Shown piece after piece: positions 794 through 62,529 of a DNA stretch of 64,000 nucleotides. The notes beneath the pieces were generated by a model. That model was not told where the DNA came from. It made no database searches and was given only the letters and a program-made list of their open reading frames with translations. Position 1 is the first letter of the stretch. The number at the start of each line of letters is the position of its first letter. Source of the stretch: an uncultured virus (IMG/VR IMGVR_UViG_3300020207_000018) (Duplodnaviria > Heunggongvirae > Uroviricota > Caudoviricetes); the IMG/VR virus record IMGVR_UViG_3300020207_000018, positions 1-64,000 of that record; one strand, 5' to 3'. Position numbers and translations under genes: made by a program.

Positions 794-1945
794 TTAGTTA
801 GATTGATTAATGTAAATCTCAATGGTTGGGTCACCATTACCAAATTCTATGACTCCTTGATAACCTTCAACATTTGTATCAATAAATCCAGAGTTGTCTC
901 CAGCAATTATGATTTCAATAACTCCGTTTACATTTCTGTATAGATATAGATCACCGTCTTGTATAAAGATATTGTATTGTGAATCTTTGTTGAAACCTAA
1001 TTGAGCACCCTTAAGTGTTACTGTACTTGACCCAGCGCCTTTTTGTACATCACTCAATGATACTGTAGTCTTTGTTAGATCATCAATAACATCTAAGAGA
1101 TCGGTAAGAAAATCTACGTCTAATAAGTCTATGTCTAATTCTGAAAACTCTAAATCGCCCTTAGTATCCTCTAATGCATCTTGTTCTAATTCGTTAAATT
1201 CTAAGAAGTCAACGTCTAATATTCCTTGATCTTGGTTCTGATCGTCTCTAGCGCCTTCTTCTATTTGTTGTCTGATTTCTGTAGGTGGATTAACAATGAA
1301 CATATTGTCAATCATGTTTGGTGTTATGTTTGCTAAAGTTAGTGGTGTCGCTGGTGTTTGATCAAATGATACGACCATAGTTGCCTGATATGCCTGGTCC
1401 AGCGTGACGCTACCGCCGTCATTAAAAACTTCTATAATTCCAGATGGATTTCCATCCTGATCAGGAAGCAAAATTACTAATGTTCTTCCGATCTCATCTA
1501 TGGTTGTGGTAAAATCTGTACCTTTAATTGATATTTGAGCAGCAGGTGTTGATACGTCTACGTTTGCTTTTTTAATTTTCTTTCCTGCGCCTGAGGTGAA
1601 TCTTGCTGTGCCTCTGACCATGCGAATTGCCATTTCAGATTTGTTTGGGTCAGGATCATAATATGCTTTATCGATATAAGCATAGGTGTGTTCTGTCATA
1701 TCCAGAACTTCATCATCTAAGAAGACGATCTTCATTCGACCGTTACCAGTCTTTGCTTCGTCTTTGAGTAGTATGTCTAAACCTACATCATTGCCAATAC
1801 TCTCTGTATTACGAGTGATATTACCAATGCCTGTGGATTCACGGATATCACCAATGGGATTGCCAAAAGCAACCCCACTGAGTAATAAAAAATTAAGAAT
1901 CGGAGTTCGAATCTTTTTGTGTAAGTTGAATGATTGCATTATCAC
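794..1945 (-). CDS. FecR-domain exported protein with acidic C-terminal region
   Basis: Signal-like N-terminus; KTGNGRMKIVFLD, MVRGTARFTSG, TPAAQISIKGTDF match the FecR domain pattern. Confidence 0.75.
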   Translation of the reverse strand: MIMQSFNLHKKIRTPILNFLLLSGVAFGNPIGDIRESTGIGNITRNTESIGNDVGLDILLKDEAKTGNGRMKIVFLDDEVLDMTEHTYAYIDKAYYDPDPNKSEMAIRMVRGTARFTSGAGKKIKKANVDVSTPAAQISIKGTDFTTTIDEIGRTLVILLPDQDGNPSGIIEVFNDGGSVTLDQAYQATMVVSFDQTPATPLTLANITPNMIDNMFIVNPPTEIRQQIEEGARDDQNQDQGILDVDFLEFNELEQDALEDTKGDLEFSELDIDLLDVDFLTDLLDVIDDLTKTTVSLSDVQKGAGSSTVTLKGAQLGFNKDSQYNIFIQDGDLYLYRNVNGVIEIIIAGDNSGFIDTNVEGYQGVIEFGNGDPTIEIYINQSN

Positions 1946-2627
1946 TAGTTACATCTAAAACAATGACACCATTAGGTGTTGAACAAGATGCATTAGATGG
2001 TGAACAAGTACCAGATATCTGAGTGATATCTACATCAGCACTGTCTCCGTCTAAAACAAAATCTATACTACCTGCACCGTCATTCTGTAGTGTATTGATA
2101 TTACTAGAACCGCCTGTAATGTCAAAATTCCAAACTAGGTCATCTGCTTCCCAATCAATGTCAAAAACATTTGAACTACCAATAATTATGAGATCGGCAT
2201 CAAGTCTTTCAGCACTGTAAACATAACCTTGATCTAAGTCAAAAGTATTGCTACTTCCTGTTACATCAAAATTAATATCTGAACTGTCAGCACTACCGAT
2301 GTATCCGATATTCCAGTCGATCTCGTTTGAATCACCTGTAAAGTTTAGCGTATAGTAAGAACTATCTGCAACTACAGGACCAAATAAAATGTTTGAATTA
2401 CCAGTAAAATCTAAATCGAACTCAAGTGTAGTACCAGTTATACTCATAGAAGATAAACTTCCTGAACTTGCATCGTCTCCACCAATTTTGTTTCCAAAAC
2501 CGATTTGGTCGATATAAAGTTTCAAAGTATCACCAGTTTGAGTGATCTTAATTTCGTTATCATCAGTGGCTTGTGCGAAAACGAATGATGTCGACATAAG
2601 TAAAAATAAACTAATTAGTTTTTTCAT
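1893..2627 (-). CDS. Curlin-like secreted beta-repeat protein (CsgA/CsgB-like)
   Basis: Signal peptide; repeats such as IDQIGFGNKI, FTGNSNI, FTGDSNEI, VTGSSNTF, IIGSSNVF, ITGGSSNI; adjacent to csgG. Confidence 0.7.
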   Translation of the reverse strand: MKKLISLFLLMSTSFVFAQATDDNEIKITQTGDTLKLYIDQIGFGNKIGGDDASSGSLSSMSITGTTLEFDLDFTGNSNILFGPVVADSSYYTLNFTGDSNEIDWNIGYIGSADSSDINFDVTGSSNTFDLDQGYVYSAERLDADLIIIGSSNVFDIDWEADDLVWNFDITGGSSNINTLQNDGAGSIDFVLDGDSADVDITQISGTCSPSNASCSTPNGVIVLDVTSDNAIIQLTQKDSNSDS

Positions 2628-3549
2628 TTTCGTTATACCCCTCTATTTCCCAAAAACCTCTTCTGTGTCCTTGGTAGATTAATTCCAACACTGCAGCTTC
2701 AATAGCTGTTCGTGTTGCGTAAGTCACCGATTCATTATTACCAACTCCGTCTTCATACTCCACTAGTCTAGTGCCTTGTTCGATGAATCTAAACACATCG
2801 CCTGTAGCACCATAACTCAGTATAGTTTTCCGAGTTTGTACATTAAGTAAAACTTCTCCAGTAAGAACTGAAACAGCTCTCATGGAAACTGTGACAACAT
2901 CTTGTCGATATTGTCTCGCACTACCAATCCCTAGATACCTTGCGCCTCGGCCTCCAGTTAAAATATTGGTATCATAACCAATTACACCACCTTCTATTAT
3001 CATTCCTGCAAATAGAAGTGGTTGTACTCCTTGTAGTTCTTCGCCTGTAGAGTCTGCGTATTCTTGTCTTGCAGTTCTAATGATTTGTCTTTCTCTTACA
3101 AGATGATCTAAACCATTTCTCTCTACGACTCTGAACCATGTTCCGTTACCAGCAGTTTTAAGAGCATCAATAACTAACTCTGGTCCGCCTTGAGTTACTG
3201 CTGTACTAAATGATGCAATGTTGTCTACACTTTTTCTTTGTCCTGTTTTATCTAAGAAATTATAGACAGTGACAATTGGTCTTTCTTTTGCTGGTGGTAA
3301 TTGTAGCAACTCGATATAAGAAGGTAATTTAACAACTTCTGGTTCTTCAACACAAATGTAAGGCATTGCCCGTTCAAACGTTCTGCCAGCTGCCTTTGCC
3401 AGATTCCATACATCGTTTGGATAATCTACGCCTTCTTCCCATGTTGCTGGGTTACAGTCTTGAGGATTATCAGACCATCTTGGTACAGATGCACATCCAC
3501 TTATTAGAAGTGTAAGTGCTAGTAGATATCTAACCACCATTTCCACCAT
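2611..3549 (-). CDS. csgG: Curli secretion channel CsgG lipoprotein
   Basis: Lipobox LISGC; VYNFLDKTGQRK, FSTAVTQGG, WFRVVERNGLDHLVRERQIIR, LLFAGMIIEGGVIGYD motifs. Confidence 0.92.
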   Translation of the reverse strand: MVEMVVRYLLALTLLISGCASVPRWSDNPQDCNPATWEEGVDYPNDVWNLAKAAGRTFERAMPYICVEEPEVVKLPSYIELLQLPPAKERPIVTVYNFLDKTGQRKSVDNIASFSTAVTQGGPELVIDALKTAGNGTWFRVVERNGLDHLVRERQIIRTARQEYADSTGEELQGVQPLLFAGMIIEGGVIGYDTNILTGGRGARYLGIGSARQYRQDVVTVSMRAVSVLTGEVLLNVQTRKTILSYGATGDVFRFIEQGTRLVEYEDGVGNNESVTYATRTAIEAAVLELIYQGHRRGFWEIEGYNENEKTN

Positions 3550-4015
3550 CAGGATCTTGTGCGAAGTTTCCTGTTCCTACTGGTATGGTGATCTCTGTGG
3601 TTGTACCATCTTCTGCTACAACAATCAGTCTGATAAACTCAGCACCTGTTTCATCTGTGATAACTTCCCATGTAATGGTGTTACCTTCTAATACAAATGA
3701 ACCGAAACCTGCTGGGTTATCATTTGCGAACATAGACTCTACTAATTGCTTAGCAAATTGAGCGTAGATTCTACTTTCTAAGTTACGTATAAATTTTGCT
3801 AGGGTTGAATTTTCTGCCTCTCTTTCAGCTGCCTTTCTGGCCGATTCAAGTGCATCTTCAATTGCCTTTTTTCTTGAGAACTCTTGGTTTTCAATGGTCA
3901 GATAGTGTGCGCCTGTGCCGACACCACTAAAGGATGGATTTTTAAATCCAAATTTAATCTCGTCTGCTAAAACTGGTAGTGATAGTAGACTAAGAACTAG
4001 AACTCTTTTTATCAT
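3530..4015 (-). CDS. csgF: Curli assembly protein CsgF
   Basis: Signal peptide, FKNPSFSG motif, FIRNLESRIYAQ, GTTTEITIP; directly upstream of csgG. Confidence 0.85.
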   Translation of the reverse strand: MIKRVLVLSLLSLPVLADEIKFGFKNPSFSGVGTGAHYLTIENQEFSRKKAIEDALESARKAAEREAENSTLAKFIRNLESRIYAQFAKQLVESMFANDNPAGFGSFVLEGNTITWEVITDETGAEFIRLIVVAEDGTTTEITIPVGTGNFAQDPDGGNGG

Positions 4016-4280
4016 TGGTTTTTACCTTGCCCTTTTTCTTCTCGTTTTCTCTATACTCTAAAACTACATCAACCTTTTGTTGTAGTCGTATAAGGTCTTG
4101 GTCTAACATTCTAGTTTGGTCTATTACTCTTATCAATGCAAAATGCATCTTTTCAATTTCGGGCTCTATGTGTTCACCAATGAACCACCACACATAGTAA
4201 ATAAAGTAACCTAGACCAATTGCTAGTATAATAGGAAATCCGTACTCTTGGACTTTTGAGATAATGTCAAATTCTTCCAT
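3990..4280 (-). CDS. Small membrane protein with coiled-coil tail
   Basis: GFPIILAIGLGYFIYYVWW transmembrane helix; resembles its upstream neighbour. Confidence 0.7.
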   Translation of the reverse strand: MEEFDIISKVQEYGFPIILAIGLGYFIYYVWWFIGEHIEPEIEKMHFALIRVIDQTRMLDQDLIRLQQKVDVVLEYRENEKKKGKVKTNDKKSSSS

Positions 4281-4573
4281 TAATCTCTTCTCACATCCAA
4301 TTTACCGTCTTCGATAAAGTTCTCTGCACGAGCAACTCTCTCAATATCAGGTCGAAGTTCCAATGCTGACGATACTAACATGTCTATCTTAATCATTTCA
4401 TTAGACATGGTTCTTGCACGATTCTCTAGTGACTTACAGAACATAGTAAGCGTCTGAATGTCATCAACTATACCTTGAAGTATTTGTTTAATGATAATGA
4501 ATATAAAACTTCCCATAACTAAGGCGATAGCTACAGGGAAGCCCAACTCAGTTATCATTTCGAATACATCCAT
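4280..4573 (-). CDS. Small membrane protein with coiled-coil tail (probable start MDVFEM at 4573)
   Basis: GFPVAIALVMGSFIFIII transmembrane helix; a late promoter at 4582-4589 favours the 4573 start over 4609. Confidence 0.7.
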   Translation of the reverse strand: MDVFEMITELGFPVAIALVMGSFIFIIIKQILQGIVDDIQTLTMFCKSLENRARTMSNEMIKIDMLVSSALELRPDIERVARAENFIEDGKLDVRRD

Positions 4574-4581
4574 TATACTCT

Positions 4582-4595
4582 TATTTATATAAATA
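4582..4595. promoter_or_regulatory. Overlapping divergent T4 late (gp55) promoters, palindrome TATTTATATAAATA
   Basis: TATAAATA on minus (4582-4589, toward the curli cassette) and on plus (4588-4595, toward the riboswitch and peptide). Confidence 0.75.
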
Positions 4596-4600
4596 AAGGT

Positions 4601-4707
4601 ATCGTTCAACCCTTTTTCTAGGGTCGGAAGTAGTCATAAGACGAAGGAACGCATTGTTACGTTCATCTATTTTTAGACGGAAGTAGGCAATGGTGCTGAA
4701 GGAACGC
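4601..4707 (+). ncRNA. Tandem glnA-type glutamine riboswitch aptamers
   Basis: Two copies of CGTTCA-stem-CGGAAGTAG-stem-GAAGGAACGC (4603-4652, 4660-4707). P1 is CGTTC/GAACG; the inner stems differ in sequence but both pair (ACCCT/AGGGT and TCTA/TAGA; GTC/GAC and GGCA/TGCT). Confidence 0.8.
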
Positions 4708-4726
4708 AATCTTTTCGGAGATTGAC

Positions 4727-4879
4727 ATGACTAAATATCAAGCAATGCTCTTTCAAAGAGCAGTCAAAAAATCTCTTAGGGAAAAACATCTAAGCTCTAG
4801 GGCTAAGAATTATAAAATTGAAAAGAAGGAATCTGTAGAATTACCAAAGTATATTACAGATAACCCTTTTTATCCTTAA
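4727..4879 (+). CDS. Small basic peptide (50 aa, MTKYQAMLFQRAVKK...ITDNPFYP) downstream of the riboswitch
   Basis: Manual translation; GGAG RBS at 4717-4720, followed by a terminator. Confidence 0.65.
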   Translation: MTKYQAMLFQRAVKKSLREKHLSSRAKNYKIEKKESVELPKYITDNPFYP

Positions 4880-4882
4880 GAT

Positions 4883-4912
4883 AAAAAAAAGGGGACGTTA
4901 TGTCCCCTTTGT
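4883..4912. terminator. Bidirectional intrinsic terminator
   Basis: AAAAAAAAGGGGAC-gttat-GTCCCCTTT between convergent genes. Confidence 0.8.
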
Positions 4913-4928
4913 TATTTTTAACTAAAAA

Positions 4929-5210
4929 TTACTTTAGTTGAGAATGGATCTCATTGATTACTTCAGCTTTTGTTCCTGATCTCTTAACTTTGAGATTCTT
5001 CTTCTCTGCCATATCAAGTAGTTGAACTTTCGTTAACTTCTTTAGCTCGAATTTAGAAACAGCACCGTCAGCATTTCTATCTACAGAGACACCTGGTCTT
5101 GTAGAAGGAACTGGAGATGGTGTGACAGTGGTAGAAGTATTACTTTTACCTCTGTTTACTATGAAGTAACCGATCACAAATACTGCAACTGCAATCAAAA
5201 AATATTCCAT
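4929..5210 (-). CDS. Membrane-anchored protein with C-terminal HeH/SAP/Rho-N-like helical domain
   Basis: N-terminal transmembrane helix; LKKLTKVQLLDMAEKKNLKVKRSGTKAEVINEI. Confidence 0.6.
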   Translation of the reverse strand: MEYFLIAVAVFVIGYFIVNRGKSNTSTTVTPSPVPSTRPGVSVDRNADGAVSKFELKKLTKVQLLDMAEKKNLKVKRSGTKAEVINEIHSQLK

Positions 5211-42178: not shown

Positions 42179-43954
42179 TTACTTAGGTGATGGTTTAAAG
42201 AAGAAGAAGTTGTGAGCTAATACACCATTTGCAAAGAAATTGTGATTGTCGCCAACGTTCTTCAAGTTATACACCTGTTGTGAATCTTTCTCCTCTATTT
42301 TAATTATTTCTAGTCCTATTTCTGTACCTAGTACAGCATCTGTCATGGTCATCAAATGATCACCGACTGCGATTTCTGAATTTACAAATTCATCTCCACC
42401 TTCTTCTTTGTGGAATTCTTTAAATTTCTCTAAGTTGATAACACCCCATTCACCATTCATTGTTCTAAATGGATGTTCTGAAGTTGTTTCAAGTATTCTA
42501 CCGTCTGATAAATGTATCTCATGTATTGATACTTCTCTTGGTTGCATCAACTCTTCGACTACACCGATCTCTAATTTATTTGTCTCTTCGTTCCAAGTCA
42601 TTACGTCTTGACCAACTTCTACTGTTTCAATTGGTACATGACTGCCATCGCCCAACCATATCATTGTGCCGGCAACAAAACATCCTTTGCCACCTCCAGG
42701 AATGTTACCAGGTATTGGACCAAACGGTTGATAGAAGTACACTGCTGGGAAGATAAATGGATATCTTGCTGTTTGTTGTGTAGTACTTGGTTGCCTTGCG
42801 TTATTTGGTTGCCTTGCGTTGTTTGGTTGCCTTGCGTTATTAGGTTGTCTAGCAGCAACTGGTTGTCTTGCCTGATACGTAAACGGCGCACGGAATGTAA
42901 ATGGAGTCCTTGCGTTATTAGGTTGTCTTGCCTGATACGTAAACGGCGCACGGAATGTAAATGGAGTCCTTGCGTTATTAGGTTGTCTTGCCTGATACGT
43001 AAACGGCGATCTATGGTTATACGTAAACGGTGATCTGTGGTTATATGTAAACGGTGATCTGTGGTTATACGTATACGGTGATCTATGTTGATACGTAAAT
43101 GGCACCCTATATGATCTTGGATCACGGTATGTAAATGGTGATCTGTACGCATACGTAAACGGTATCTGATATGATCTTGGATCACGGTATGTAAATGGTG
43201 ATCTATGTTGATACGTAAATGGCACCCTATATGATCTTGGGTCTCTATATGTAAATGGTGACCTATGTTGATACGTAAACGGTGTTTGTGCGTTTCTGAT
43301 ATTTGGTTCTTGTGCAGACCTAATATTTGGTTCTTGACCGCTTCTAATATTAGGCTCTTGAGCAGCAACTGGATGTTGATAAGATGCTGGTGTTTGTCTA
43401 TTTCTTATAAACGGAGTCTGAGCACTTACAGGGTGATTATACCCAGCTGGTGTTTGTGCGTTTCTGATAAACGGATTCTGTGCATTAACAGGATGTTGAT
43501 AAGAAGCAGGTTGTTGTGCGTTTCTGATAAACGGATTCTGTGCATTTACTGGATGTCTATAGAATGCTGGTGTTTGTCTATTTCTTATAAACGGATTCTG
43601 TGCATTAACAGGATGTCTATATGATACAGAGTTTTGTGCATTCGCAATATAAGGCGATTGAGCATTCGCAATATAAGGATACGGCTGTTGTGCATCTCTT
43701 ATAAATGGATTCTGTCTATTAGCAATATAAGGATACGGCTGTTGTGCATCTCTTATAAATGGATTCTGTCTATTAGCAATATAAGGATATGGCTGTTGTG
43801 TAGGTTGTTGACCTGATGCGTTATTCCACCCACTAGGAGTTTTAATGTAAATTTGATCTACATCTTTCCAAGTGTTTGAAGCAGTTTTAACCCATGCACC
43901 TTGGGTTGAATTCCAACCTGAGGGGGTTTTTACTTTCTGTGAGCCTGTCGCCAT
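42179..43954 (-). CDS. Pro-delimited repeat protein A (39 units) with C-terminal Hint domain; putative fibre subunit
   Basis: W-rich N-terminal cap, repeat residues 55-388, then CFVAGT...TSEHPF...HNFFANGVLAHN. Confidence 0.85.
   Translation of the reverse strand: MATGSQKVKTPSGWNSTQGAWVKTASNTWKDVDQIYIKTPSGWNNASGQQPTQQPYPYIANRQNPFIRDAQQPYPYIANRQNPFIRDAQQPYPYIANAQSPYIANAQNSVSYRHPVNAQNPFIRNRQTPAFYRHPVNAQNPFIRNAQQPASYQHPVNAQNPFIRNAQTPAGYNHPVSAQTPFIRNRQTPASYQHPVAAQEPNIRSGQEPNIRSAQEPNIRNAQTPFTYQHRSPFTYRDPRSYRVPFTYQHRSPFTYRDPRSYQIPFTYAYRSPFTYRDPRSYRVPFTYQHRSPYTYNHRSPFTYNHRSPFTYNHRSPFTYQARQPNNARTPFTFRAPFTYQARQPNNARTPFTFRAPFTYQARQPVAARQPNNARQPNNARQPNNARQPSTTQQTARYPFIFPAVYFYQPFGPIPGNIPGGGKGCFVAGTMIWLGDGSHVPIETVEVGQDVMTWNEETNKLEIGVVEELMQPREVSIHEIHLSDGRILETTSEHPFRTMNGEWGVINLEKFKEFHKEEGGDEFVNSEIAVGDHLMTMTDAVLGTEIGLEIIKIEEKDSQQVYNLKNVGDNHNFFANGVLAHNFFFFKPSPK
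42209..42682 (-). other. Hint / intein-like autoprocessing domain
   Basis: Cys1 (CFVAGT), block B TSEHPF, VYNL, terminal His-Asn. Confidence 0.85.
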
Positions 43955-46285: not shown

Positions 46286-46545
46286 TAGATAGTACCTCCG
46301 TCAACTTGCGGTAATGAAAACTCACCCGTTGATGAGTTATAAGATAAATTCGTTTCTCCAGATGCTAATGAAATAGCACCTCTTGCTTTTGCGTTAGTAA
46401 AATATTGATTCGTTGCACCTTCTGTGATGTCATCTGAGTCTAGTGCGGATACTGATCCAGCGGTAATTTTACCAGCACTAGTTATGACCTCTGTAGAACC
46501 GATGTTTAATCCGTATTCTATAACAAAATTATTTTGTGTTGCCAT
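46285..46545 (-). CDS. Small fibre-associated protein
   Basis: One EGATNQYFT repeat, ends DGGTI; N-terminus resembles that of 43988..46285. Confidence 0.65.
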   Translation of the reverse strand: MATQNNFVIEYGLNIGSTEVITSAGKITAGSVSALDSDDITEGATNQYFTNAKARGAISLASGETNLSYNSSTGEFSLPQVDGGTI

Positions 46546-46633
46546 GGTTAGTGTGTCCTAATTGAGTGTATACAGTATTATTTAGTAGAGATTACTCTTC
46601 AAAAAGGTGGTTTAAACAAAATTTAAACAAAAA

Positions 46634-55569: not shown

Positions 55570-55780
55570 TTATTTTCTCTTCTATCTTTCTAAGAAGTTC
55601 CTTAACTTCGGTTACTTCTTGTCTTAAACTATTTATTTCCTTTTTCTGAGAAGCAATGATTTGTCTTCTTCTCATTACCAATTTAAACTGTTCAACATCT
55701 GTATTGATAATTGCTTGTGAACGTTCTTCTCTAATTAGATTTGAATGTCCTTCAACCTTTATCATGCTAATGCTATACAT
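55562..55780 (-). CDS. Small conserved coiled-coil protein
   Basis: [10 protein letters not shown]...AIIN, typical next to the large baseplate protein. Confidence 0.65.
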
Positions 55781-58700
55781 CTAAGACCAGAAATTATTGG
55801 TACTTGAGATGTGTTTGTAGCCTGTCCTACAATCTTAATTACAAAACCTGTAAATTCAGGTAAGTTGTCTGCTGTGTATTCGTATTCTTTAAAGTTTCTA
55901 GCGTCTTGATCAATAGCTGTGTCAGGACCACCAGTTGAGTTAAAGAATTCAAATCCTAAATCATCTACTGGTGTATCTTCATCGTTTTTGATGAGTTTGT
56001 ATAAAACTTTAATGTCTGAGTTAGGTGGTCTAAAGTTATCTGATAAAACTTTCAATGATGTAGCAGGATTCTTTAAACTTACCAATCTTGTTGTGTATAC
56101 CATTGCGTTGTTATCGCCATCTGGTTCTGTTGATGGTACGTAAACTTCACCATCTGATAGATCGGCAGCAGAATCAATATCATTAATTCTGTTCATAATA
56201 CCTAGACAACCAATTGTACCTGTATCAATGTAAGGTGATACGTTTGGATTTGATGATCTCATTTGTAGTAATAATCTAAATGATCTCTGGTTACCCATTC
56301 TCTCTAATTCGTTGAGGGGTGATGCAACAACACTTGGTCTACTGAAGTAAACGTTATCGTTTAATTTAATAAAGTCATTTGCAGTTCTTCTTACATATTC
56401 AGTATCTAAGTTTGAATCTTCTGGTGAACCCATACCTGTTCTATTAATACTTGAGAATATTTGAGTATTATTAAATGTTATAGAAGGTATCATTGTATGA
56501 ATTGCATCATAATAGATGTTTCTTGTACTTCTAACTTGACTACCACCGCCATCTACACTTTGAGTTGCAACAAAACTTGTGCCGCCTTCTAAGTCATAAG
56601 ATGACATTACAGATGTTCTAGGTAGAACATTAAATGAGTCTATACTATAATCTTGTAGACTCTCGTGTGTACCGTTAATAGCTGCAACTGGAATACCACC
56701 CAATGTGTTTTCAACATTGGTGACACTTACTGTAAATGTTTGACTGTCGATTGTGACTGTAATAGTGTCGTTCACTGCGTAGTCACTACCTGGATCAGTA
56801 ATCTTAATTGAGTTTACTGCATCTAAATCTCCAGCGTCTACAACTACTTTGACTTTAAGACCTGTACCTGTACCACCTGTTACAACAGCATCATTACTTC
56901 CACCAGTCTCGTATGTCTGTGCTGTTACGGCAGCACTAATAGCACTTGGTGTGCCAATCTCTACTACGCCATCTTCTTTATCGCCTTTCACGCCTGCTAT
57001 TGTTACGTGTGAAGTTGTTTCGTACATACCGTGTGAGTAGTTTAATATCTTAACATAACTTTGACCAGCAAATGTTTGAACTGGATTCTCTTGTAGTTTT
57101 ACATCTCCGATAAAATCGTTTTCAAACACAACTTCTGCAACTTTTGAGGTATCGAATTGTGCAATCTTAAGATTGAACTTGAGATCGTCTGTTTGTTCTG
57201 CTGTCCATGTTGATGCGTTTTGTGATAAGAACAATGAACCAGCATATGGTTGTCCTGAAATTGTTTCACCAGTAATTAAATCGTTTTCGCCCATTCTGGA
57301 TATGAAACATTCGTATTCGTTTGAGTTTGATAAAACTACGAAACAGTATTCTTTACCTTTCTCTAGGTATACAGGCGAATCAAATGTAAATGTTGTAGCA
57401 CTTGAACCGTCTTCTGAAATATTAACTTCGTTTGGATTCTTAGATACTGTTGAGAATGGTAATACTAACTGACCTGGATAACCATTCACCATGTTTCTAA
57501 CTTGTACTGACACTGGTAGTGCATCGTCTTTAGTTCTAAAGAATAGATCAACTGAAGACAACATCATGCCACCATCCATATCTACTAAGAATGATTCTGC
57601 TAATGGATCGACCCACTCTGTCTCACGCAATTCTCTCTCATCGAATATTCTAGGAATTCTAGGATCAACGTCCCAAAAATCTCTAGGGTCATCAATAGGC
57701 GGTGGTGACGGTATCGGCGTACTTGTTGGTGTCGGCGTTGGTGTCGGTGTCGGTGTAGGCGACGGTGTAGGCGCAGGAGTTGTTGTCGGCGCTGGCGTCG
57801 GCGTAGGTGTCGGTGTAGGACTTGGTGTAGGCTCTGGAGTCGGTGTTGGACTCGGTATAGGTGCCTCAGTAGGTTCTGGTGTAGGTGTAGGTGCTGGAGT
57901 TGCAGGTGGTTCTGGACTTGGCTCAGGTGGTGTACCTGTACCAGGTGTTACGTTTAATAACTCACCTCTTCTTACTATTTGTCTCTCAGCAGATAGCCTT
58001 TCAATAACTACTCTACCATTCCTTGTTGATACAATTTCAGTTTGTGAAGCTTGTAATAAACCTTGTGCTTGATAGATTGCATTACCTCGTGATGCTGGGT
58101 TAGAAAGGTTATTTGAACTTGATGTAATAACCATTTCTCTAGCACCAGTTGGGAATCTCTGGAATCTATCGTTAGGTAAACTGAATGTTGCTCTTAATCT
58201 ACCGTTACCATCTGTTTTTACTATTTGATCGTATGATGTACCACCATCTTTACTGTACAGTGTACTGAATGGTTTTACATATGAGTTTACATCGATACCA
58301 TCAAAGAATACGTAATGGTTTGTGTTTGGTTTTAAGTTAACTGCATCTATTTCAATGTCTCTTGGTCTACAGAATGGTACAATTGTGACACTAACAATTC
58401 TATCGTTACGTGTTTCAACTAACTCTTCTACAACCGATGTTCTAACACCTGTTCTGATCTGAGACTCAGGTGTTTCTGTTACATTTCTTGTAACAGTAGT
58501 ATTAGGTGTATATTCACCACCTTGTGAAGGATCACCGTTCCAAGCTGCTGGAACACTTGATAATGTCTCTGTCTCTACAACTGTAGGTTCACCTACCCAT
58601 GTAGTCTGCCATGCGTTCCAAACAGTGCCTAATGCGTTTTCGTTCTCTGCTAATACTGCATCGAAGTTGCCTTCTCTGTTAACTCTTACTTCTGGTAATT

Positions 58701-61700
58701 GTTCTGTGTCTTGCCAGATGTCTGTCTCTGGACTTAGTTTAACGTGACCAATAAATGCAAACACAGCGTATGGGTTAACATTTAATGACCTAGATGCCTT
58801 ATTTTGATTAACAAATGATCTTTCTGTATATGGTAATGTGATAATATCACCAGACTTCTTATAGTTACGTGACAATGCTGAGTTAGCAATGATATCAAAG
58901 AACTGAGTATGGTGTTTAGGTCTTAATTGACCTAGTTTTGTATCGATAGCACATTCATAGTCTGGATGTGAAACATCACCAATCTTATGACCTCTAAAGT
59001 TATCTACTAAGAAGCCTGATTTATATCTGTCAAATCCGTCTGCATCTAAAATTTGTTTTGATTGTGTATCTTTTTCTAATAAAGATAGTGCTGTAATTCT
59101 TTCAATGTTTGTAAGTCTTTGGTTTATTCTACCAATATCTTTCATCGTATATCTACGATGATCAAATTGTTTTAAATTGATTTCTTTTAAGTTTGATGTG
59201 TAAGCAGGTATGAACAATTCGAACATTTCAATTGCATCATCTAACTGATTTGGTTTTTGAGGACTAATATCAGGATAACCAATAGAAACTTCAAACTTAC
59301 CATTTCTAGTTAAGAATACTTTATCAATTCTAGGTACATAGAAATCTATATCTGCTGTCACTGAAGATGTAGGCATTGGACATGAAATTGTTCCATTGTC
59401 GACATCGTTAAACACCCTTGATGTGTATACAAATGGTGCAGCTGTTACTTTTGTATTATCTGATAAGTTTAATGGATCGTTCTGATCATAAGCATTTGTA
59501 TCATCATCTTGGAAATTAGTGCCAGGTAAAAAGTCTGTTGATGGTCTAAAGTCTACTGCATCTGATAATTCGAACTTACCGTCTGGTTCAAAACCACCTA
59601 AGTCTACTTTATTTGGTGAGTAATTTGGTATATCTTTGTACTCAACATCAGCACTGTTATAAGAATTTACTGAGTAGTAATCTCCTGTACCACCTCTACT
59701 AAACATGTCAAAGATAACAGTCACAGGATTGTTAGGTGCTGATCTACCTTGTTTTAAAACTAGTTTTGAGAAGTCATAATAACCATCTCTTTGGCCATTG
59801 TCTAAGAAATAGTTGTTCTTAATGTTTGGTGAACCTGCACTTAAGTTTGATAGTACAGCGATACCTGAACTTGTTTGGCCAACAATTGTCTCACCGTCAA
59901 TGAAAGGTATATCATTTAAGTATACAAAGTATGATGTGTTTGTATCACCACCCCAATTGATCAATAATGCTCTTGCTGTTGATGATTGACCTACAATCTC
60001 TTCTTTTAATGCAAAAGAACCTGAACTTATTGTTACAGTTGCGTTTGGTGGTGTTGCCTGACTATTTGAACCTGAAGTTGTGCCTGGAACTGCCTCTAAA
60101 ACTGCATGTATTTTATAGACATCTGGTACACATAGATTCAATTCTTTGTGATCGTATGCAAGACCATAGAAAGGTTTATCACTATTAGATGATCTAAATG
60201 AAACTGATCTGAATTTTTCTAAAGCTTTTGACTTTACAGCAGGTGCTGTTCTCTTAACAGTATAAGTTGCTAATATTTGAGCACCTGATCCTGAATCACT
60301 GAATGTAACATCTAATGAAGTACCTGGTGTACCAAAAGTTACATCGTCTGCGACTAACACGTCACCTAATGCTACGACATCACCAGTTCCGTTTAGTGAT
60401 AATTTAGTAAATTGATATTTGTCATCACCAAAGTCTGAGAATGTTTCGTCTGACTCTTTTGTCAAAGTGATTGTACCATTTGACATTGAGAACAGTCCTT
60501 GTTTTCTGACTTCTACTGTTCCTGTTGGTGTTACATCTGAAACGTAATCTCTAGGCCATGCAAATATATTTGATGTCTGATCTTGGTCTGCAAGTTTTGC
60601 TCTTTTTCTGATAACTGCTACTTGTGTTGCCGCTGAAGGTGTCACTGCACCACCAGCTGTTGTAACTACATTTAACGATGTATCGTTAGTAACAACTGAA
60701 ACTCTATGTTCTGTACCATTAACAACGATATGATCACCAACTTTTACTTCTTTAGTAAACTGTGAACCAACACCTTGTAATTCATTTGTTGAGCCATTAA
60801 ATGTACCTAAACCAGATATTACTGATATATCATCTAATACTACATCGGCACTAAAGTCTAGTCCTACGCTAGCAGGTGAAACTTGACCGACTGAGTGAGA
60901 TTGACTTACATTAAAGACCTGAACACTAGTTGATGCTACTGCTGATGCAGTTCCCTTACCTCTAACTGATACATTATTACCTGATACAAATTGTCCTACT
61001 ACATCATGTAGATAAATGTTATTACTATCGACATATGCAACAATACCTGTTGCGCCTGTAATATCGTCTGTTAGTTTATCACCGTTAGCATATAATGTTG
61101 AGGTTGCTGTTGTAACTCCAACTTTAGTAAACATTTTAATATCAAATAGATATAATTGATATTCATCTGTAGCTGACTCATCAAAATGTCTAACTCTTGC
61201 AAAACCAATATTCTCTGCACTACCACTTAATGCTGATGCAGAAGATTTAGGTAGACTGTAAAGTTTGATTGGTTCGAAAGCATTTGTTGAAGCTGAATCA
61301 CCAATTTCTGGCATTCCATAAATGTTGTTGATTTTTAATTTATTACCTATTCTAACTGGTGTTGATGCGTTAGATAGTTCTGCTGTTGTTCTTGCTTTAT
61401 TAATTGTTAGGTTTGATGTACCTGCTTTTTCAATTTCGTATCCTCTAACATAAGCTTTACCAGCAGATATCTGCATGATAAACTTCTCTTCTTGTCCGCC
61501 TTCTGCTATTGGATAAAACCCTTTGTTATCTGAAGTTTTTAAATGTTCTCTGAAATTACTAGTAAATGGTCTTACAACAAAATCGCCATTGGCATCAAAG
61601 GTTCTTCGTGCCATAGTATTTTCTATTTCAGAATAGATTGGTCTATTGATTGATAGTTCAATGATACCATTGTTAACTCTTGCTAATTCAATGAAGTTAA

Positions 61701-62529
61701 CACTTGTAGTATCTGTTAGTGCTACTTTAGATAATGTAAGATCAAATTTTAATCTATCGGCACCAGGCGCATTATCGTTTGATGAGCCTTGTGCATTGTC
61801 TAAGAGACTATTATCTTCTGTTGATGATATGATAGTTTCATTGATAGAAAGACCAACTCTATATGAAGGATTACCTGCATATTTTTCTAATACGATAAGT
61901 TGTTTGTCTACCTTTACAAAGAAACCTCTTGTAAAAACTACACCTTCTGAAATTTCTGCAATTGAAGCACGACCAGTTGGTGTTGATGATTGTGATAATG
62001 TTTTAAAGTAGTTGTTGTTTGTTGCTACAGCAGAAGTTGATCCAAAACCGTCAGCTGAGAATTCTACTTCTCTTATTTCTTCTGAACCTTTGAATATAAA
62101 AGAACCATCGCTGTCTGTACCTTGTGATAATGCTTTTACAAATAGTGTTATAGAATCATCTTCAGTTTCAGCAGTTGATGAAATAACTTTTGCTACTACA
62201 CCTGTTGTTAAACCTTGAATGAGTTTGCCGTGAAAACTAGTTCTATAAGATTCTACGTTTAGATCGCCGTTTGCATTTGGATTTGAATTTTGTACTTTGA
62301 CAAAATAGATGTCCATGTCAATGTTTGACTGAGCACCTGAAACAATAGAACCTTCTTTAAAGAAATGATCACCAAATTTCTCTACCTGATCTTGTAGAAT
62401 AGATTGAGTTTGAGTTAACTCTCTCGCTTGAATTGGTCGACCAGCACGATACAGAACTTTATGAAATTTCTTGTCTGCATCGTAATCATCGTAATATGGT
62501 GTAATATTTAGATCCGTTTTCTCTGACAT
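55762..62529 (-). CDS. Very large baseplate/virion structural protein (DUF4815-like)
   Basis: [47 protein letters not shown]; internal PT-rich linker. Confidence 0.85.
57698..57943 (-). repeat. Pro/Thr (PT)n low-complexity linker
   Basis: [22 protein letters not shown]...[19 protein letters not shown]. Confidence 0.9.

What the first reader, a model, noticed from the sequence alone, without database searches (positions are those of the whole stretch)
4588..4912. Late-promoter-driven tandem glutamine riboswitch controlling a 50-aa basic peptide
This is a self-contained plus-strand unit: TATAAATA (4588-4595), two glnA-type aptamers, a hairpin CAATCTT-TTCG-GAGATTG (4707-4724) that buries the GGAG RBS, a 50-codon ORF, then a terminator. 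ATTG in the inter-aptamer linker could extend P1 of aptamer 2 by pairing with CAAT (4707-4710), which would open the RBS hairpin, so it may be a translational ON switch. glnA-motif RNAs are known to bind glutamine and often occur in tandem. A phage that senses host nitrogen status late in infection through an unannotated peptide is notable. Basic glutamine-synthetase inactivating factors are one analogy; control of lysis timing is another possibility.
Basis: partly seen in the sequence, partly recalled or inferred. Interest (0 to 1): 0.7.

Follow-up and report, generated by a model that had tools for sequence, protein, structure and literature searches.

The report
Phage glutamine switch gating a mini-protein
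A marine T4-like phage carries a self-contained late gene in which two genuine glutamine-sensing RNA switches sit in front of a conserved 50-residue basic protein of unknown job, a unit also found on the chromosomes of small marine bacteria.

Summary
Rfam's glutamine riboswitch model (RF01739, cut-off 35 bits) hits 4601-4655 (66.3 bits) and 4658-4710 (56.8 bits).

- **The ORF is a real gene.** pN/pS is 0.12. It belongs to an undescribed family of 38-69 aa proteins (MTKYQ...RAVKK...LPxYITDNPFYP) with no Pfam match.
- **The RNA and the peptide go together.** In 32 of 32 related viral loci with upstream DNA, aptamers directly precede the ORF: 28 in tandem, 4 single.
- **The flanking signals are conserved.** [T/G]ATAAATA precedes aptamer 1 in 33 of 33 sequences. 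The anti-RBS hairpin covaries.
- **Mechanism.** Glutamine-ON translation is the most likely reading, by analogy with the Synechocystis gifB leader.
- **My own hypothesis.** The tail of aptamer 1 may mask P2 of aptamer 2, wiring the two sensors in series. Support is moderate.
- **Host.** The phage resembles pelagimyophages and the OM43 phage Melnitz rather than cyanophages.
- **Cellular copies.** Small marine Gammaproteobacteria carry the same unit. In that order the riboswitch also precedes glutamine synthetase genes, and GlnE was not found.

The peptide's function is unknown. This scan reported the same unit before on other DNA (e1-6081739, e1-6085990, e1-6026991).

The parts
4588..4595 (+). 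T4-type late promoter motif TATAAATA. The inferred transcript start is about 4601, the first position of the aptamer 1 model.
   Evidence: 9 further copies lie on the minus (coding) strand, several just upstream of structural genes such as portal, sheath and scaffold (ORFs, Pfam). [T/G]ATAAATA lies 12-30 nt upstream of aptamer 1 in 33 of 33 sequences (11 TATAAATA, 22 GATAAATA). The start site is inferred from recalled T4 spacing, not mapped.
4582..4589 (-). Divergent TATAAATA on the minus strand. It overlaps the plus-strand motif and faces the phrog_18771 gene (4280-4573).
   Evidence: This is context only, not part of the switch.
4601..4655 (+). Glutamine aptamer 1 (RF01739).
   Evidence: 66.3 bits, model positions 1-53 of 53; the structure holds on 72 viral aptamers, with 96.7% of cells paired.
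4652..4658 (+). Tail of aptamer 1 (CAUUGUU). It begins at the conserved C after P1. It is the proposed mask of aptamer 2.
   Evidence: 7 contiguous pairs with 4686-4692. A helix of 5 or more pairs in this same register is seen in 11 of 18 distinct tandem variants; the minimum-energy fold pairs these regions. This is a hypothesis.
4658..4710 (+). Glutamine aptamer 2 (RF01739).
   Evidence: 56.8 bits, model positions 1-53 of 53.
4686..4692 (+). 5' strand and loop of P2 in aptamer 2 (GGCAAUG). It is the proposed partner of the aptamer 1 tail.
   Evidence: L130 carries a compensating pair (CAUUACU with GGUAAUG).
4707..4724 (+). Anti-RBS hairpin. The 5' arm (4707-4713) starts at the conserved C after P1 of aptamer 2. 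The 3' arm (4718-4724) holds most of the Shine-Dalgarno GGAG (4717-4720).
   Evidence: fold. (17 distinct platforms): 91.6% of cells paired, 4 of 7 pairs changed on both sides, slid registers 32-67%.
4727..4879 (+). Gene for a 50-aa basic peptide (12 K/R against 5 D/E by my count on the translation), stop codon included. Family motif MTKYQ...RAVKK...LPxYITDNPFYP.
   Evidence: family; pN/pS 0.12 over 208 pairs. AlphaFold2 gives a helix over residues 3-35, mean pLDDT 78.9.
4888..4910 (.). Intrinsic terminator that works in both directions, shared with the convergent minus-strand gene 4929-5210.
   Evidence: -14.8 kcal/mol, z -4.0; terminator-like on both strands.

Best explanation
This is an autonomous late transcription unit of a marine T4-like myovirus of the pelagimyophage/Melnitz kind.

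1. A T4-type late promoter (TATAAATA) starts an RNA whose 5' end is the first of two complete type-1 glutamine (glnA-class) aptamers.
2. Directly after P1 of aptamer 2, a 7-bp hairpin pairs the conserved C and the bases that follow it with the Shine-Dalgarno sequence of a 50-codon gene.
3. When glutamine is scarce, the hairpin blocks translation initiation.
4. When glutamine binds, that C is drawn into the aptamer's long-range G-C pair, the hairpin is weakened, and the peptide is translated. The switch is therefore glutamine-ON at the level of translation.
5. The product is a real small protein of an undescribed family: a long basic helix followed by an invariant C-terminal motif.
6. Small marine Gammaproteobacteria carry the same unit on their chromosomes, and their glutamine synthetase genes carry the same riboswitch class. 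The peptide most likely acts on nitrogen assimilation.

Shown: the aptamers, the conserved linkage to the ORF, the hairpin covariation, the promoter motif, and purifying selection on the ORF.

Inferred: ligand binding, the ON sign, the late timing, and any target of the peptide.
For: **Aptamers.** Two RF01739 hits well above the cut-off. On 72 viral aptamers, 96.7% of cells are paired, and all 7 pairs of P1a and P2 show changes on both sides.

**Linkage to the ORF.** Of 33 viral loci that encode the peptide, 32 have upstream DNA. All 32 have an aptamer match ending just upstream of the ORF: 28 tandem and 4 single.

**Promoter.** [T/G]ATAAATA lies 12-30 nt upstream of aptamer 1 in 33 of 33 sequences. 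The same motif precedes structural genes in the window.

**Anti-RBS hairpin.** It folds in each of the 5 platform variants tested. It covaries: 91.6% of cells paired against 32-67% in slid registers.

**Design match.** The anti-RBS stretch starts at the conserved C after P1, as in the experimentally ON gifB leader (PMC6212724, passages of sections 17 and 20).

**The ORF is coding.** pN/pS is 0.12 at pS 0.64. Invariant residues are written with varied codons. The family has 29 representative clusters, 28 of them 38-69 aa long.

**No other target.** A terminator follows the ORF and the next gene is convergent, so nothing else on the + strand is regulated.

**Bacterial copies.**
- 7 strong matches among 266 genomes of one order.
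- Tandem aptamers upstream in 7 loci (6 of the strong matches plus L170).
- Housekeeping genes as neighbours.
- In that order RF01739 is over the cut-off in 64 of 151 genomes.
- The riboswitch also precedes a 468-aa GS-I, a 323-aa GS-like protein and a Gcw_chp protein.
- GlnE was found in 0 of 266 genomes, while the control rang in 3 reference genomes.
Against: - No experiment on this RNA exists. Ligand binding and the sign of regulation rest on analogy.
- The hairpin abuts P1 with no spacer. Losing only its closing C-G pair may not melt it, so an OFF or neutral outcome is not excluded.
- The minimum-energy fold of 4601-4745 is not better than shuffles (z -1.23).
- The TATAAATA count in the window is only modestly above chance.
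- gp33 was not found in this record, which is 43% complete. gp55 was not searched.
- The peptide has no detectable relation to DUF4278/IF17.
- A full-length GS was found in only 4 of the 7 peptide-bearing genomes searched. These assemblies may be incomplete.
- For the OM43 host of Melnitz, which carries another peptide family, the authors report no glnA (PMC9004378 passage).
- RNA-library contigs that cover 4640-4800 come from a close variant, not from this phage. They cannot exclude carried-over DNA.
Confidence: 0.7

Rival explanations
1. Series wiring of the two aptamers. This refines the best explanation and is my own hypothesis. The 3' tail of aptamer 1 (4652-4658) pairs with the P2 strand of aptamer 2 (4686-4692) and keeps aptamer 2 unfolded. 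Glutamine bound to aptamer 1 withdraws the tail's first C. Aptamer 2 can then fold, bind glutamine and free the RBS. Two ligands are needed in sequence, which gives a steep threshold.
For: - The window has 7 contiguous pairs that start exactly at the conserved C.
- The same register, with 5 or more pairs, is seen in 11 of 18 distinct tandem variants, bacterial ones included.
- L130 shows compensating changes (CAUUACU:GGUAAUG against CAUUGUU:GGCAAUG).
- The observed mean best helix is 5.06 against 4.63 +/- 0.17 for shuffled tails; 14 of 1000 shuffles reach it.
- The minimum-energy fold forms this helix.
- The geometry mirrors the pairing of tail 2 with the RBS.
Against: - 7 of the 18 variants, all those with a long aptamer 2, show no such helix.
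- The sequences are related, so the shuffle test overstates support.
- The register differs between subgroups, so no single column-wise covariation test was possible.
- 23 of the tandem sources were analysed. Identical duplicates and the minus-strand loci were left out.
Confidence: 0.35
2. Translational OFF switch. Glutamine stabilises P1 of aptamer 2, which stacks on and stabilises the adjacent RBS hairpin, so the peptide is made only when glutamine is low.
For: - P1 and the hairpin are contiguous (4706|4707), so coaxial stacking is possible.
- In bacteria of the same order the same aptamer class precedes GS genes, where repression by glutamine would be the intuitive logic.
Against: - The first hairpin base is the conserved C that forms the ligand-dependent long-range pair in this class.
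- A leader of this design, gifB, is ON in vivo (PMC6212724 passages).
- The GS leaders have a different, much longer platform, 74-84 nt to the first ATG.
Confidence: 0.15
3. The peptide is a functional analogue of the cyanobacterial GS inactivating factors IF7 and IF17. It would be a glutamine-induced basic mini-protein that inhibits glutamine synthetase in hosts that lack GlnE. The phage would use it late in infection to stop ATP-costly nitrogen assimilation.
For: - It has the same riboswitch class and ON design as gifB.
- It is basic and helical.
- GlnE is absent from 266 of 266 genomes of the bacterial order that holds the unit.
- GS genes in that order carry the same riboswitch.
Against: - No sequence or profile similarity to DUF4278 or to the YRG peptides.
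- A full GS was found in only 4 of 7 peptide-bearing genomes.
- PII is present in 5 of 5 genomes searched and is an equally plausible target.
- There is no binding evidence of any kind.
Confidence: 0.2
4. Linker ATTG (4653-4656) pairs with CAAT (4707-4710), extends P1 of aptamer 2 and thereby opens the RBS hairpin.
For: The four bases are complementary in the window and in L129 and L034.
Against: - L136, L137, L140 and L138 keep the same linker and the same P2, but their tails (CAUCUC.., CAUUUUCC..) lack CAAU.
- L130 and the CAUCUU group likewise have no complement in tail 2.
- The helix would leave a 3-nt bulge next to P1.
Confidence: 0.05
5. Passenger cassette. The unit was recently captured from a bacterial chromosome and does nothing for the phage. 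Alternatively, it serves lysis timing together with the neighbouring curli-type genes.
For: - A bacterial unit is 91% identical over 184 nt to viral locus L114.
- The cassette sits at different places in different phages.
- The Melnitz authors speculated about a link between the riboswitch and lysis (PMC9004378 passage).
Against: - 33 viral loci keep the ORF under strong purifying selection.
- All of them have a phage late-promoter motif in place of the bacterial upstream sequence.
- The curli neighbourhood is shared by only 2 of 39 loci.
Confidence: 0.1

Closest known systems
Type-1 glutamine riboswitch of the Synechocystis gifB (IF17) leader (Klahn et al. 2018, PMC6212724; passages read)
   Same: - The aptamer family is the same (RF01739).
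- The anti-RBS stretch begins at the conserved C after P1.
- The product is a small basic protein.
- The expected logic is glutamine-ON.
   Different: - There are two aptamers in tandem.
- A phage late promoter replaces the NtcA-controlled one.
- The product is not DUF4278/IF17.
- The hosts are heterotrophs and their phage, not cyanobacteria.
Glutamine riboswitches of the OM43 phage Melnitz, Pelagibacter phage Mosig and pelagimyophage MAVGs (Buchholz et al. 2022, PMC9004378; passages read)
   Same: - The phage group is the same: curli CsgG/CsgF genes and T4-like core genes.
- The aptamer class is the same.
   Different: - Those phages have single aptamers.
- The paper reads the Melnitz switch as controlling the upstream tmRNA.
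- I find a short ORF directly behind the aptamer in both. In Mosig it is the annotated 51-aa Mosig_00116. In Melnitz it is an unannotated 32-codon ORF starting MTLYQ.
- Those peptides are of other families (for the Mosig type).
Downstream-peptide / glutamine-II motif (RF01704) before short ORFs in marine picocyanobacteria (Weinberg et al. 2010, PMC2864571, section passage; Klahn 2018)
   Same: A glutamine-sensing leader stands in front of very short conserved ORFs, often in many copies.
   Different: - The aptamer class differs: RF01704 does not match here.
- Those ORFs are DUF4278-like.
- They are restricted to cyanobacteria.
Tandem glnA RNAs noted by Weinberg et al. 2010, and tandem riboswitches such as the glycine riboswitch (recalled, not checked here)
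   Same: Two like aptamers in series precede one gene, an arrangement linked to a sharper response.
   Different: Here a specific aptamer-to-aptamer masking helix is proposed. I did not see this described for glutamine riboswitches in the papers and passages I read.

Membership tests
Type-1 glutamine riboswitch (glnA RNA, Rfam RF01739) | Covariance-model score at or above the curated gathering score (35 bits). | tested here: met
   66.3 and 56.8 bits, both matching the full length of the model. Found again in the parent record.
Type-1 glutamine riboswitch (glnA RNA, Rfam RF01739) | Three helices (P1, P1a, P2) around invariant junction sequences, supported by covariation. | tested here: met
   72 viral aptamers, including both from the window: 96.7% of cells paired; all 7 P1a and P2 pairs changed on both sides; slid registers 30-51%. 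P1 never varies, so it says nothing either way.
Type-1 glutamine riboswitch (glnA RNA, Rfam RF01739) | Selective binding of L-glutamine. | not testable with these tools
   Needs in-line probing or ITC.
Type-1 glutamine riboswitch (glnA RNA, Rfam RF01739) | Expression platform in which the conserved C after P1 and the following bases pair with the ribosome binding site (gifB-type ON design). | tested here: met
   Hairpin 4707-4724. Covariation on 17 platforms. Published model read.
GS inactivating factors IF17/IF7 (DUF4278, PF14105) | Match to PF14105, or a profile relation to DUF4278-type YRG peptides. | tested here: not met
   - No match for the window peptide.
- 1 of 20 family members at E 0.08 only.
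- 0 of 4 YRG-bearing family members at E<=1.
- hhalign probability 0.4% against the viral YRG peptides. Of the 6 YRG peptides scanned, 3 do pass PF14105's cut-off.
GS inactivating factors IF17/IF7 (DUF4278, PF14105) | Binds and inactivates glutamine synthetase. | not testable with these tools
   Needs enzyme assays or pull-downs.
T4-type late transcription unit | TATAAATA-type -10 element a few bases upstream of the transcript start, with no -35 element. | tested here: met
   Motif at 4588-4595. [T/G]ATAAATA in 33 of 33 related sequences.
T4-type late transcription unit | The phage encodes the late machinery (gp55 sigma factor, gp33 co-activator, gp45 clamp). | tested here: inconclusive
   gp45 and the clamp loader gp44/gp62 are in the window. 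gp33 of Melnitz found nothing in this 43%-complete record. gp55 was not searched.
Tandem riboswitch | Two complete aptamers of one class, adjacent, before a single gene, with the arrangement conserved. | tested here: met
   The two aptamers are 2 nt apart. The arrangement is tandem in 28 of 32 viral loci and in 7 bacterial loci.
Intrinsic terminator | GC-rich stem-loop followed by a U run directly after the gene. | tested here: met

The most novel reading that the evidence does not exclude
The two aptamers form a ligand relay: the tail of sensor 1 masks sensor 2, and the tail of sensor 2 masks the ribosome binding site. This gives a steep glutamine threshold. The peptide it releases founds a new class of glutamine-induced regulators of nitrogen assimilation, acting on GS, PII or a transporter. 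Such a regulator would stand in for the missing GlnE adenylylation system in streamlined marine Gammaproteobacteria. Their phages have put it under late-promoter control to reset host nitrogen flow at the end of infection.
Probability: 0.15. Interest if true: 0.75.

Novelty: new variant of a known kind. Interest (0 to 1): 0.5.

Why it matters
- **Reach of the riboswitch class.** The glutamine riboswitch is usually described as cyanobacterial. Here a standard copy, in tandem, runs a stand-alone late gene in a phage of the pelagimyophage/Melnitz group.
- **Cellular counterpart.** The same unit lies in chromosomes of small marine Gammaproteobacteria. In that order I found the riboswitch over the cut-off in 64 of 151 genomes, and GlnE in none of 266.
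- **A possible regulatory circuit.** This points to an undescribed glutamine-controlled mini-protein circuit in abundant streamlined heterotrophs, borrowed by their viruses.
- **A published reading to revisit.** The Melnitz riboswitch was read as controlling a tmRNA. A short ORF sits directly behind it.
- **Testable systems exist.** Melnitz and Mosig are in culture.

Tried and rejected
- **Phage DNA search.** The region found nothing. A tblastn with the peptide gave only chance-level Salmonella phage hits at E>=1.
- **Family searches for the peptide.** Pfam and PHROGs gave nothing. The ESM Atlas gave no usable hit.
- **Profile comparisons.** Against the DUF4278-type YRG peptides and against the Mosig-type peptides there was no relation: 0.4% and 0.1% probability.
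- **Fused forms.** The only longer hit (102 aa, P0021) is a gene call that reads through the riboswitch leader in frame.
- **Complex prediction.** Two copies of GS from genome G212 with that genome's peptide gave 'no answer' (score 0.03). This counts neither for nor against binding.
- **RF01704.** No match in the parent record, and the control rang nowhere.
- **gp33.** No match in the parent record, which is an incomplete fragment.
- **Genome G001.** It shows no RF01739 hit because its peptide gene lies at a contig end.
- **RNA-library contigs.** They cover the flanking genes, and 4640-4741 or 4640-4800 of a close variant. 4812-4868 had no cover in any of the four runs. None of this shows a start, an end, a strand or an expression level.
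- **Linker analysis.** The analysis was then done from stored loci by coordinates.
- **Papers.** No paper search was made for the peptide motif itself.
Full report
**1. The observation**

- Rfam's Glutamine model RF01739 matches 4601-4655 (66.3 bits, E 1.7e-12) and 4658-4710 (56.8 bits, E 7.4e-10). Both matches cover the full length of the model, against a gathering score of 35. They are the only Rfam hits over threshold in the 64-kb window.
- TATAAATA is at 4588-4595.
- The hairpin pairs 4707-4713 with 4718-4724 and folds at -5.8 kcal/mol (z -2.1). It encloses GGAG (4717-4720), 6 nt before the ATG at 4727.
- The ORF 4727-4879 encodes 50 residues.
- A terminator follows at 4888-4910 (-14.8 kcal/mol, z -4.0, 0 of 200 shuffles as good). 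It also reads as a terminator for the convergent gene 4929-5210.

**2. Where it lies**

The window is the first 64 kb of a 78-kb IMG/VR virus record that CheckV rates 43% complete.
- Pfam on 50 large ORFs shows a T4-like myovirus: gp23, gp20, gp18, gp19, terminase, gp44/62/45, regA, uvsW, uvsY. No photosynthesis gene is in this part.
- Almost all genes are on the minus strand. The unit is a rare plus-strand island.
- The clamp loader is about equally close to Pelagibacter phage Mosig (61.9%), HTVC008M (60.1%) and cyanomyoviruses (about 60%).
- The CsgG/CsgF/FecR cluster at 794-4015 has relatives among sequenced phages only in HTVC008M, the four Melnitz isolates and one 1.5-kb Salmonella phage fragment: 7 records in all.
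- I therefore place the phage in the pelagimyophage/Melnitz group, not among cyanophages. The host remains unknown.
- Near-identical DNA is held by salt-marsh and marine metagenome runs.

**3. The ORF is a gene**

- A word-indexed search found 19 relatives of 40-62 aa.
- A full HMMER scan of 1.84 billion cluster representatives with a 38-row profile found 29 clusters at E<=0.001. All are 38-69 aa long except one 1246-aa protein that matches over 13 residues only.
- The alignment has an invariant M1, T2, P40, Y42 and N46-P50. Y4, R11, V13, L17, T44 and D45 are nearly invariant.
- Over the gap-free first 5 and last 12 codons of 21 loci (208 non-identical pairs), pS is 0.64 and pN is 0.077, so pN/pS is 0.12. 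The invariant residues are written with two to four different codons each, except the last tyrosine, always TAT.
- AlphaFold2 on the alignment gives one helix over residues 3-35. The mean pLDDT is 94 over the first 20 residues and 78.9 overall. The C-terminal motif is mostly unstructured.
- By my count on the translation the peptide has 12 K/R against 5 D/E.
- No Pfam or PHROG family matches.

**4. RNA and peptide belong together**

*Viral loci that encode the peptide.*
- Back-translated search of IMG/VR found 33 such loci.
- My own covariance model, built from 72 viral aptamers, finds 60 aptamers in them. All are on the coding strand, just upstream of the ORF.
- 28 loci have two aptamers and 4 have one (L144, L149, L151, L152). 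L131 has only 45 nt of upstream DNA and shows none.
- Some loci are near-identical copies of each other.
- Of 6 further family loci from the pattern scan, 5 are tandem by Rfam.

*Promoter motif.*
- [T/G]ATAAATA lies 12-30 nt upstream of aptamer 1 in 33 of 33 sequences: 11 TATAAATA and 22 GATAAATA.
- Where the motif lies 27-30 nt upstream, a small hairpin fills the gap.
- In the window, 9 other TATAAATA copies are on the minus strand. Several lie 6-70 nt before structural genes.

*Mobility of the cassette.*
- Gene order around the unit is shared by only 2 of 39 loci: L129, which is identical, and L034.
- In 5 of 17 loci examined the cassette follows gp23. In one it follows gp32.
- It is therefore a mobile promoter-to-terminator cassette.

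**5. How the switch most likely works**

*The anti-RBS hairpin.*
- The 5' arm of the hairpin begins at the C that directly follows P1 of aptamer 2.
- On 17 distinct platforms the 7-pair helix has 91.6% of cells paired. Slid registers give 32-67%. Four pairs have changes on both sides, and 0 of 500 shuffles reach the observed covariation score.
- The rows are related, so these figures overstate independence.

*Analogy with gifB.*
- Klahn et al. state that in the gifB leader the corresponding C and the bases after it can pair with the RBS.
- Following the structures of Ren et al., they postulate that glutamine binding captures this C in a long-range G-C pair and melts the inhibitory helix.
- Their reporter rises on an ammonium upshift. 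It loses this with an aptamer mutation and regains it with the compensating one (PMC6212724, passages of sections 17 and 20).
- The window's platform has the same design, so I read it as glutamine-ON. My odds are about 0.7.

- The proposed pairing of ATTG with CAAT at 4707-4710 is not conserved.
- L136, L137, L140 and L138 keep the linker and P2 but have tails without CAAU.

*A possible relay between the aptamers.*
- The tail of aptamer 1, again starting at its conserved C, can pair with the P2 strand of aptamer 2.
- In the window this is CAUUGUU with GGCAAUG. In L130 it is CAUUACU with GGUAAUG. In a third group, bacterial loci included, it is CAUCU with AGGUG.
- That covers 11 of 18 distinct variants among 23 sources. 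The 7 variants with a long aptamer 2 do not fit.
- Shuffled tails average 4.63 +/- 0.17 against the observed 5.06, and 14 of 1000 shuffles reach the observed value.
- The minimum-energy fold of 4601-4745 forms this helix together with the RBS hairpin, but it is not better than shuffles overall (z -1.23).
- I offer the relay (sensor 1 unmasks sensor 2, sensor 2 unmasks the RBS) as a hypothesis at about 0.35.

**6. The cellular counterpart and what it suggests**

I tested this.

*The unit in bacterial chromosomes.*
- A scan of species-representative genomes found one hit at the end of a contig of a Gammaproteobacteria MAG, beside pssA-like, ilvC and acetolactate synthase genes.
- In that genome's order, 9 of 266 genomes match the peptide profile. 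Seven matches are strong, in genomes of 1.1-1.6 Mb.
- Tandem aptamers lie directly upstream in 7 loci: six of the strong matches, plus L170, where the peptide match is cut off at a contig end. The seventh strong match, in G001, is itself cut off at a contig end.
- The neighbours are ordinary chromosomal genes.
- One bacterial unit is 91% identical over 184 nt to viral locus L114, and 74% over 163 nt to the window.

*The riboswitch and nitrogen genes in that order.*
- RF01739 is over the cut-off in 64 of 151 sampled genomes, often in tandem and at several loci per genome.
- In the 12 top loci the first long ORF behind it is a 468-aa GS-I (2 loci), a 323-326-aa GS-like protein (7, plus one cut-off call), a Gcw_chp protein (1) or a 17-codon ORF (1).
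- GlnE was found in 0 of 266 genomes, while the control rang in 3 reference genomes.
- PII was present in 5 of 5 genomes searched.
- A full-length GS was found in 4 of the 7 peptide-bearing genomes searched.

The peptide thus belongs to a glutamine-riboswitch regulon in bacteria that lack the usual GS adenylylation enzyme. This makes a role in nitrogen assimilation likely. An IF7/IF17-like action on GS is conceivable, at about 0.2. No binding evidence exists.

**7. Against what is known**

- The aptamer class and its tandem occurrence were described in 2010 (PMC2864571, section passage).
- Its ON function before gifB was shown in 2018 (PMC6212724).
- Its presence in T4-like cyanophages is stated in two genome papers (introduction passages of PMC9602691 and PMC9964418).
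- Buchholz et al. reported it in Melnitz, Mosig and ten pelagimyophage MAVGs, and read it as controlling the upstream tmRNA (PMC9004378 passages).
- RF01739 in SAR86 and Pelagibacter MAGs is mentioned in PMC12379486 (passages).

In the passages I read, no small ORF behind the phage switches is discussed.
- In Mosig the aptamer (92197-92250, minus strand) is followed by the annotated 51-aa Mosig_00116.
- In Melnitz the aptamer (46398-46446) is followed, after GGGGAGAG, by an unannotated 32-codon ORF starting MTLYQ. The record instead annotates a 33-aa ORF on the other strand.

The pattern is more general.
- Of 120 viral loci with the aptamer core pattern, 111 have a complete ATG ORF of at least 15 codons that starts within 80 nt. 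Three more run off the locus, and 6 have none.
- The ORFs fall into several unrelated families.
- One of them is a YRG group, of which 3 of 6 tested pass PF14105's cut-off.

I did not search for the peptide motif, and I saw no supplementary files.

**8. Verdict**

- The RNA is an ordinary member of a known class. The gene it controls is an undescribed mini-protein family.
- The setting departs from the cyanobacterial paradigm: a heterotroph-type phage, a late promoter, a shared bacterial unit, and possible series wiring of the two sensors.
- I rate it a new variant of a known kind, interest 0.5.
- The scan reported the same unit before on other DNA (e1-6081739, e1-6085990, e1-6026991). My tests agree with those notes independently.

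**9. Limits**

- Nothing here shows ligand binding, the sign of regulation, the transcript start or the peptide's target.
- Contigs from four RNA libraries cover the flanking genes with identical sequence. They also cover 4640-4741 or 4640-4800 of a close variant whose 5' part differs from the window. They cannot show transcription of this unit.

Noticed in passing
window 794-4015 (-): A curli-type cluster: FecR-domain protein, a 244-aa ORF, CsgG (PF03783, E 1.5e-50) and CsgF. Among sequenced phages it is shared only with HTVC008M, the Melnitz isolates and one short Salmonella phage fragment.
   Followed up: partly
window 3990-4280 and 4280-4573 (-): Two adjacent paralogues of phrog_18771 (unknown function, E about 3e-25 each). 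The second is served by a minus-strand TATAAATA (4582-4589) that overlaps the plus-strand one, forming a divergent late-promoter pair.
   Followed up: partly
L128 1573-1670 (Melnitz MZ577097.1, about 46470-46567, +): An unannotated 32-codon ORF (MTLYQQWCY...) with a GGGGAGAG RBS lies directly behind the Melnitz glutamine aptamer. The aptamer itself follows the two-piece tmRNA. The record annotates a 33-aa ORF on the opposite strand instead.
   Followed up: partly
L003-L122 (viral contigs): At least seven different short-peptide families follow glutamine aptamers in viral contigs. My crude motif classes give: Melnitz-type 24, NGxGTSGY 19, YRG 19, Mosig-type 11, AKLAMAM 7, RPFxWK 6, the present family 6, other 19; 111 ORFs in all.
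   Followed up: partly
L132-L161, about 27-30 nt upstream of aptamer 1: Where the ATAAATA motif lies further upstream, a small hairpin (GUAAC-loop-GUUAC type) fills the gap. The transcript would then begin with a 5' stem-loop.
   Followed up: no
L175-L186 (genomes of the order of G001): In small marine Gammaproteobacteria, RF01739 precedes a GS-I gene, a 323-326-aa GS-like gene and a Gcw_chp gene, 69-84 nt before the first ATG. The platform is different and longer (L181 1380-1660). The riboswitch was over the cut-off in 64 of 151 genomes. GlnE was found in 0 of 266.
   Followed up: partly
P0021, P0002 (public gene calls): Some public gene calls extend the peptide N-terminally (...PKERIFVKGDD-MTKYQ) by reading the aptamer and RBS hairpin in frame. 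These are likely mis-called starts.
   Followed up: yes
L015, L019, L054: freshwater-2 RNA (RF02980) and, in L019, manA RNA (RF01745) lie a few hundred bases from other phage glutamine-riboswitch units.
   Followed up: no
window 42179-43954 (-) and 55762-62529 (-): The 591-aa ORF has a C-terminal intein-splicing-like match below Pfam's cut-off (33.3 against 35.8 bits). The other is a 2255-aa protein with DUF4815.
   Followed up: no
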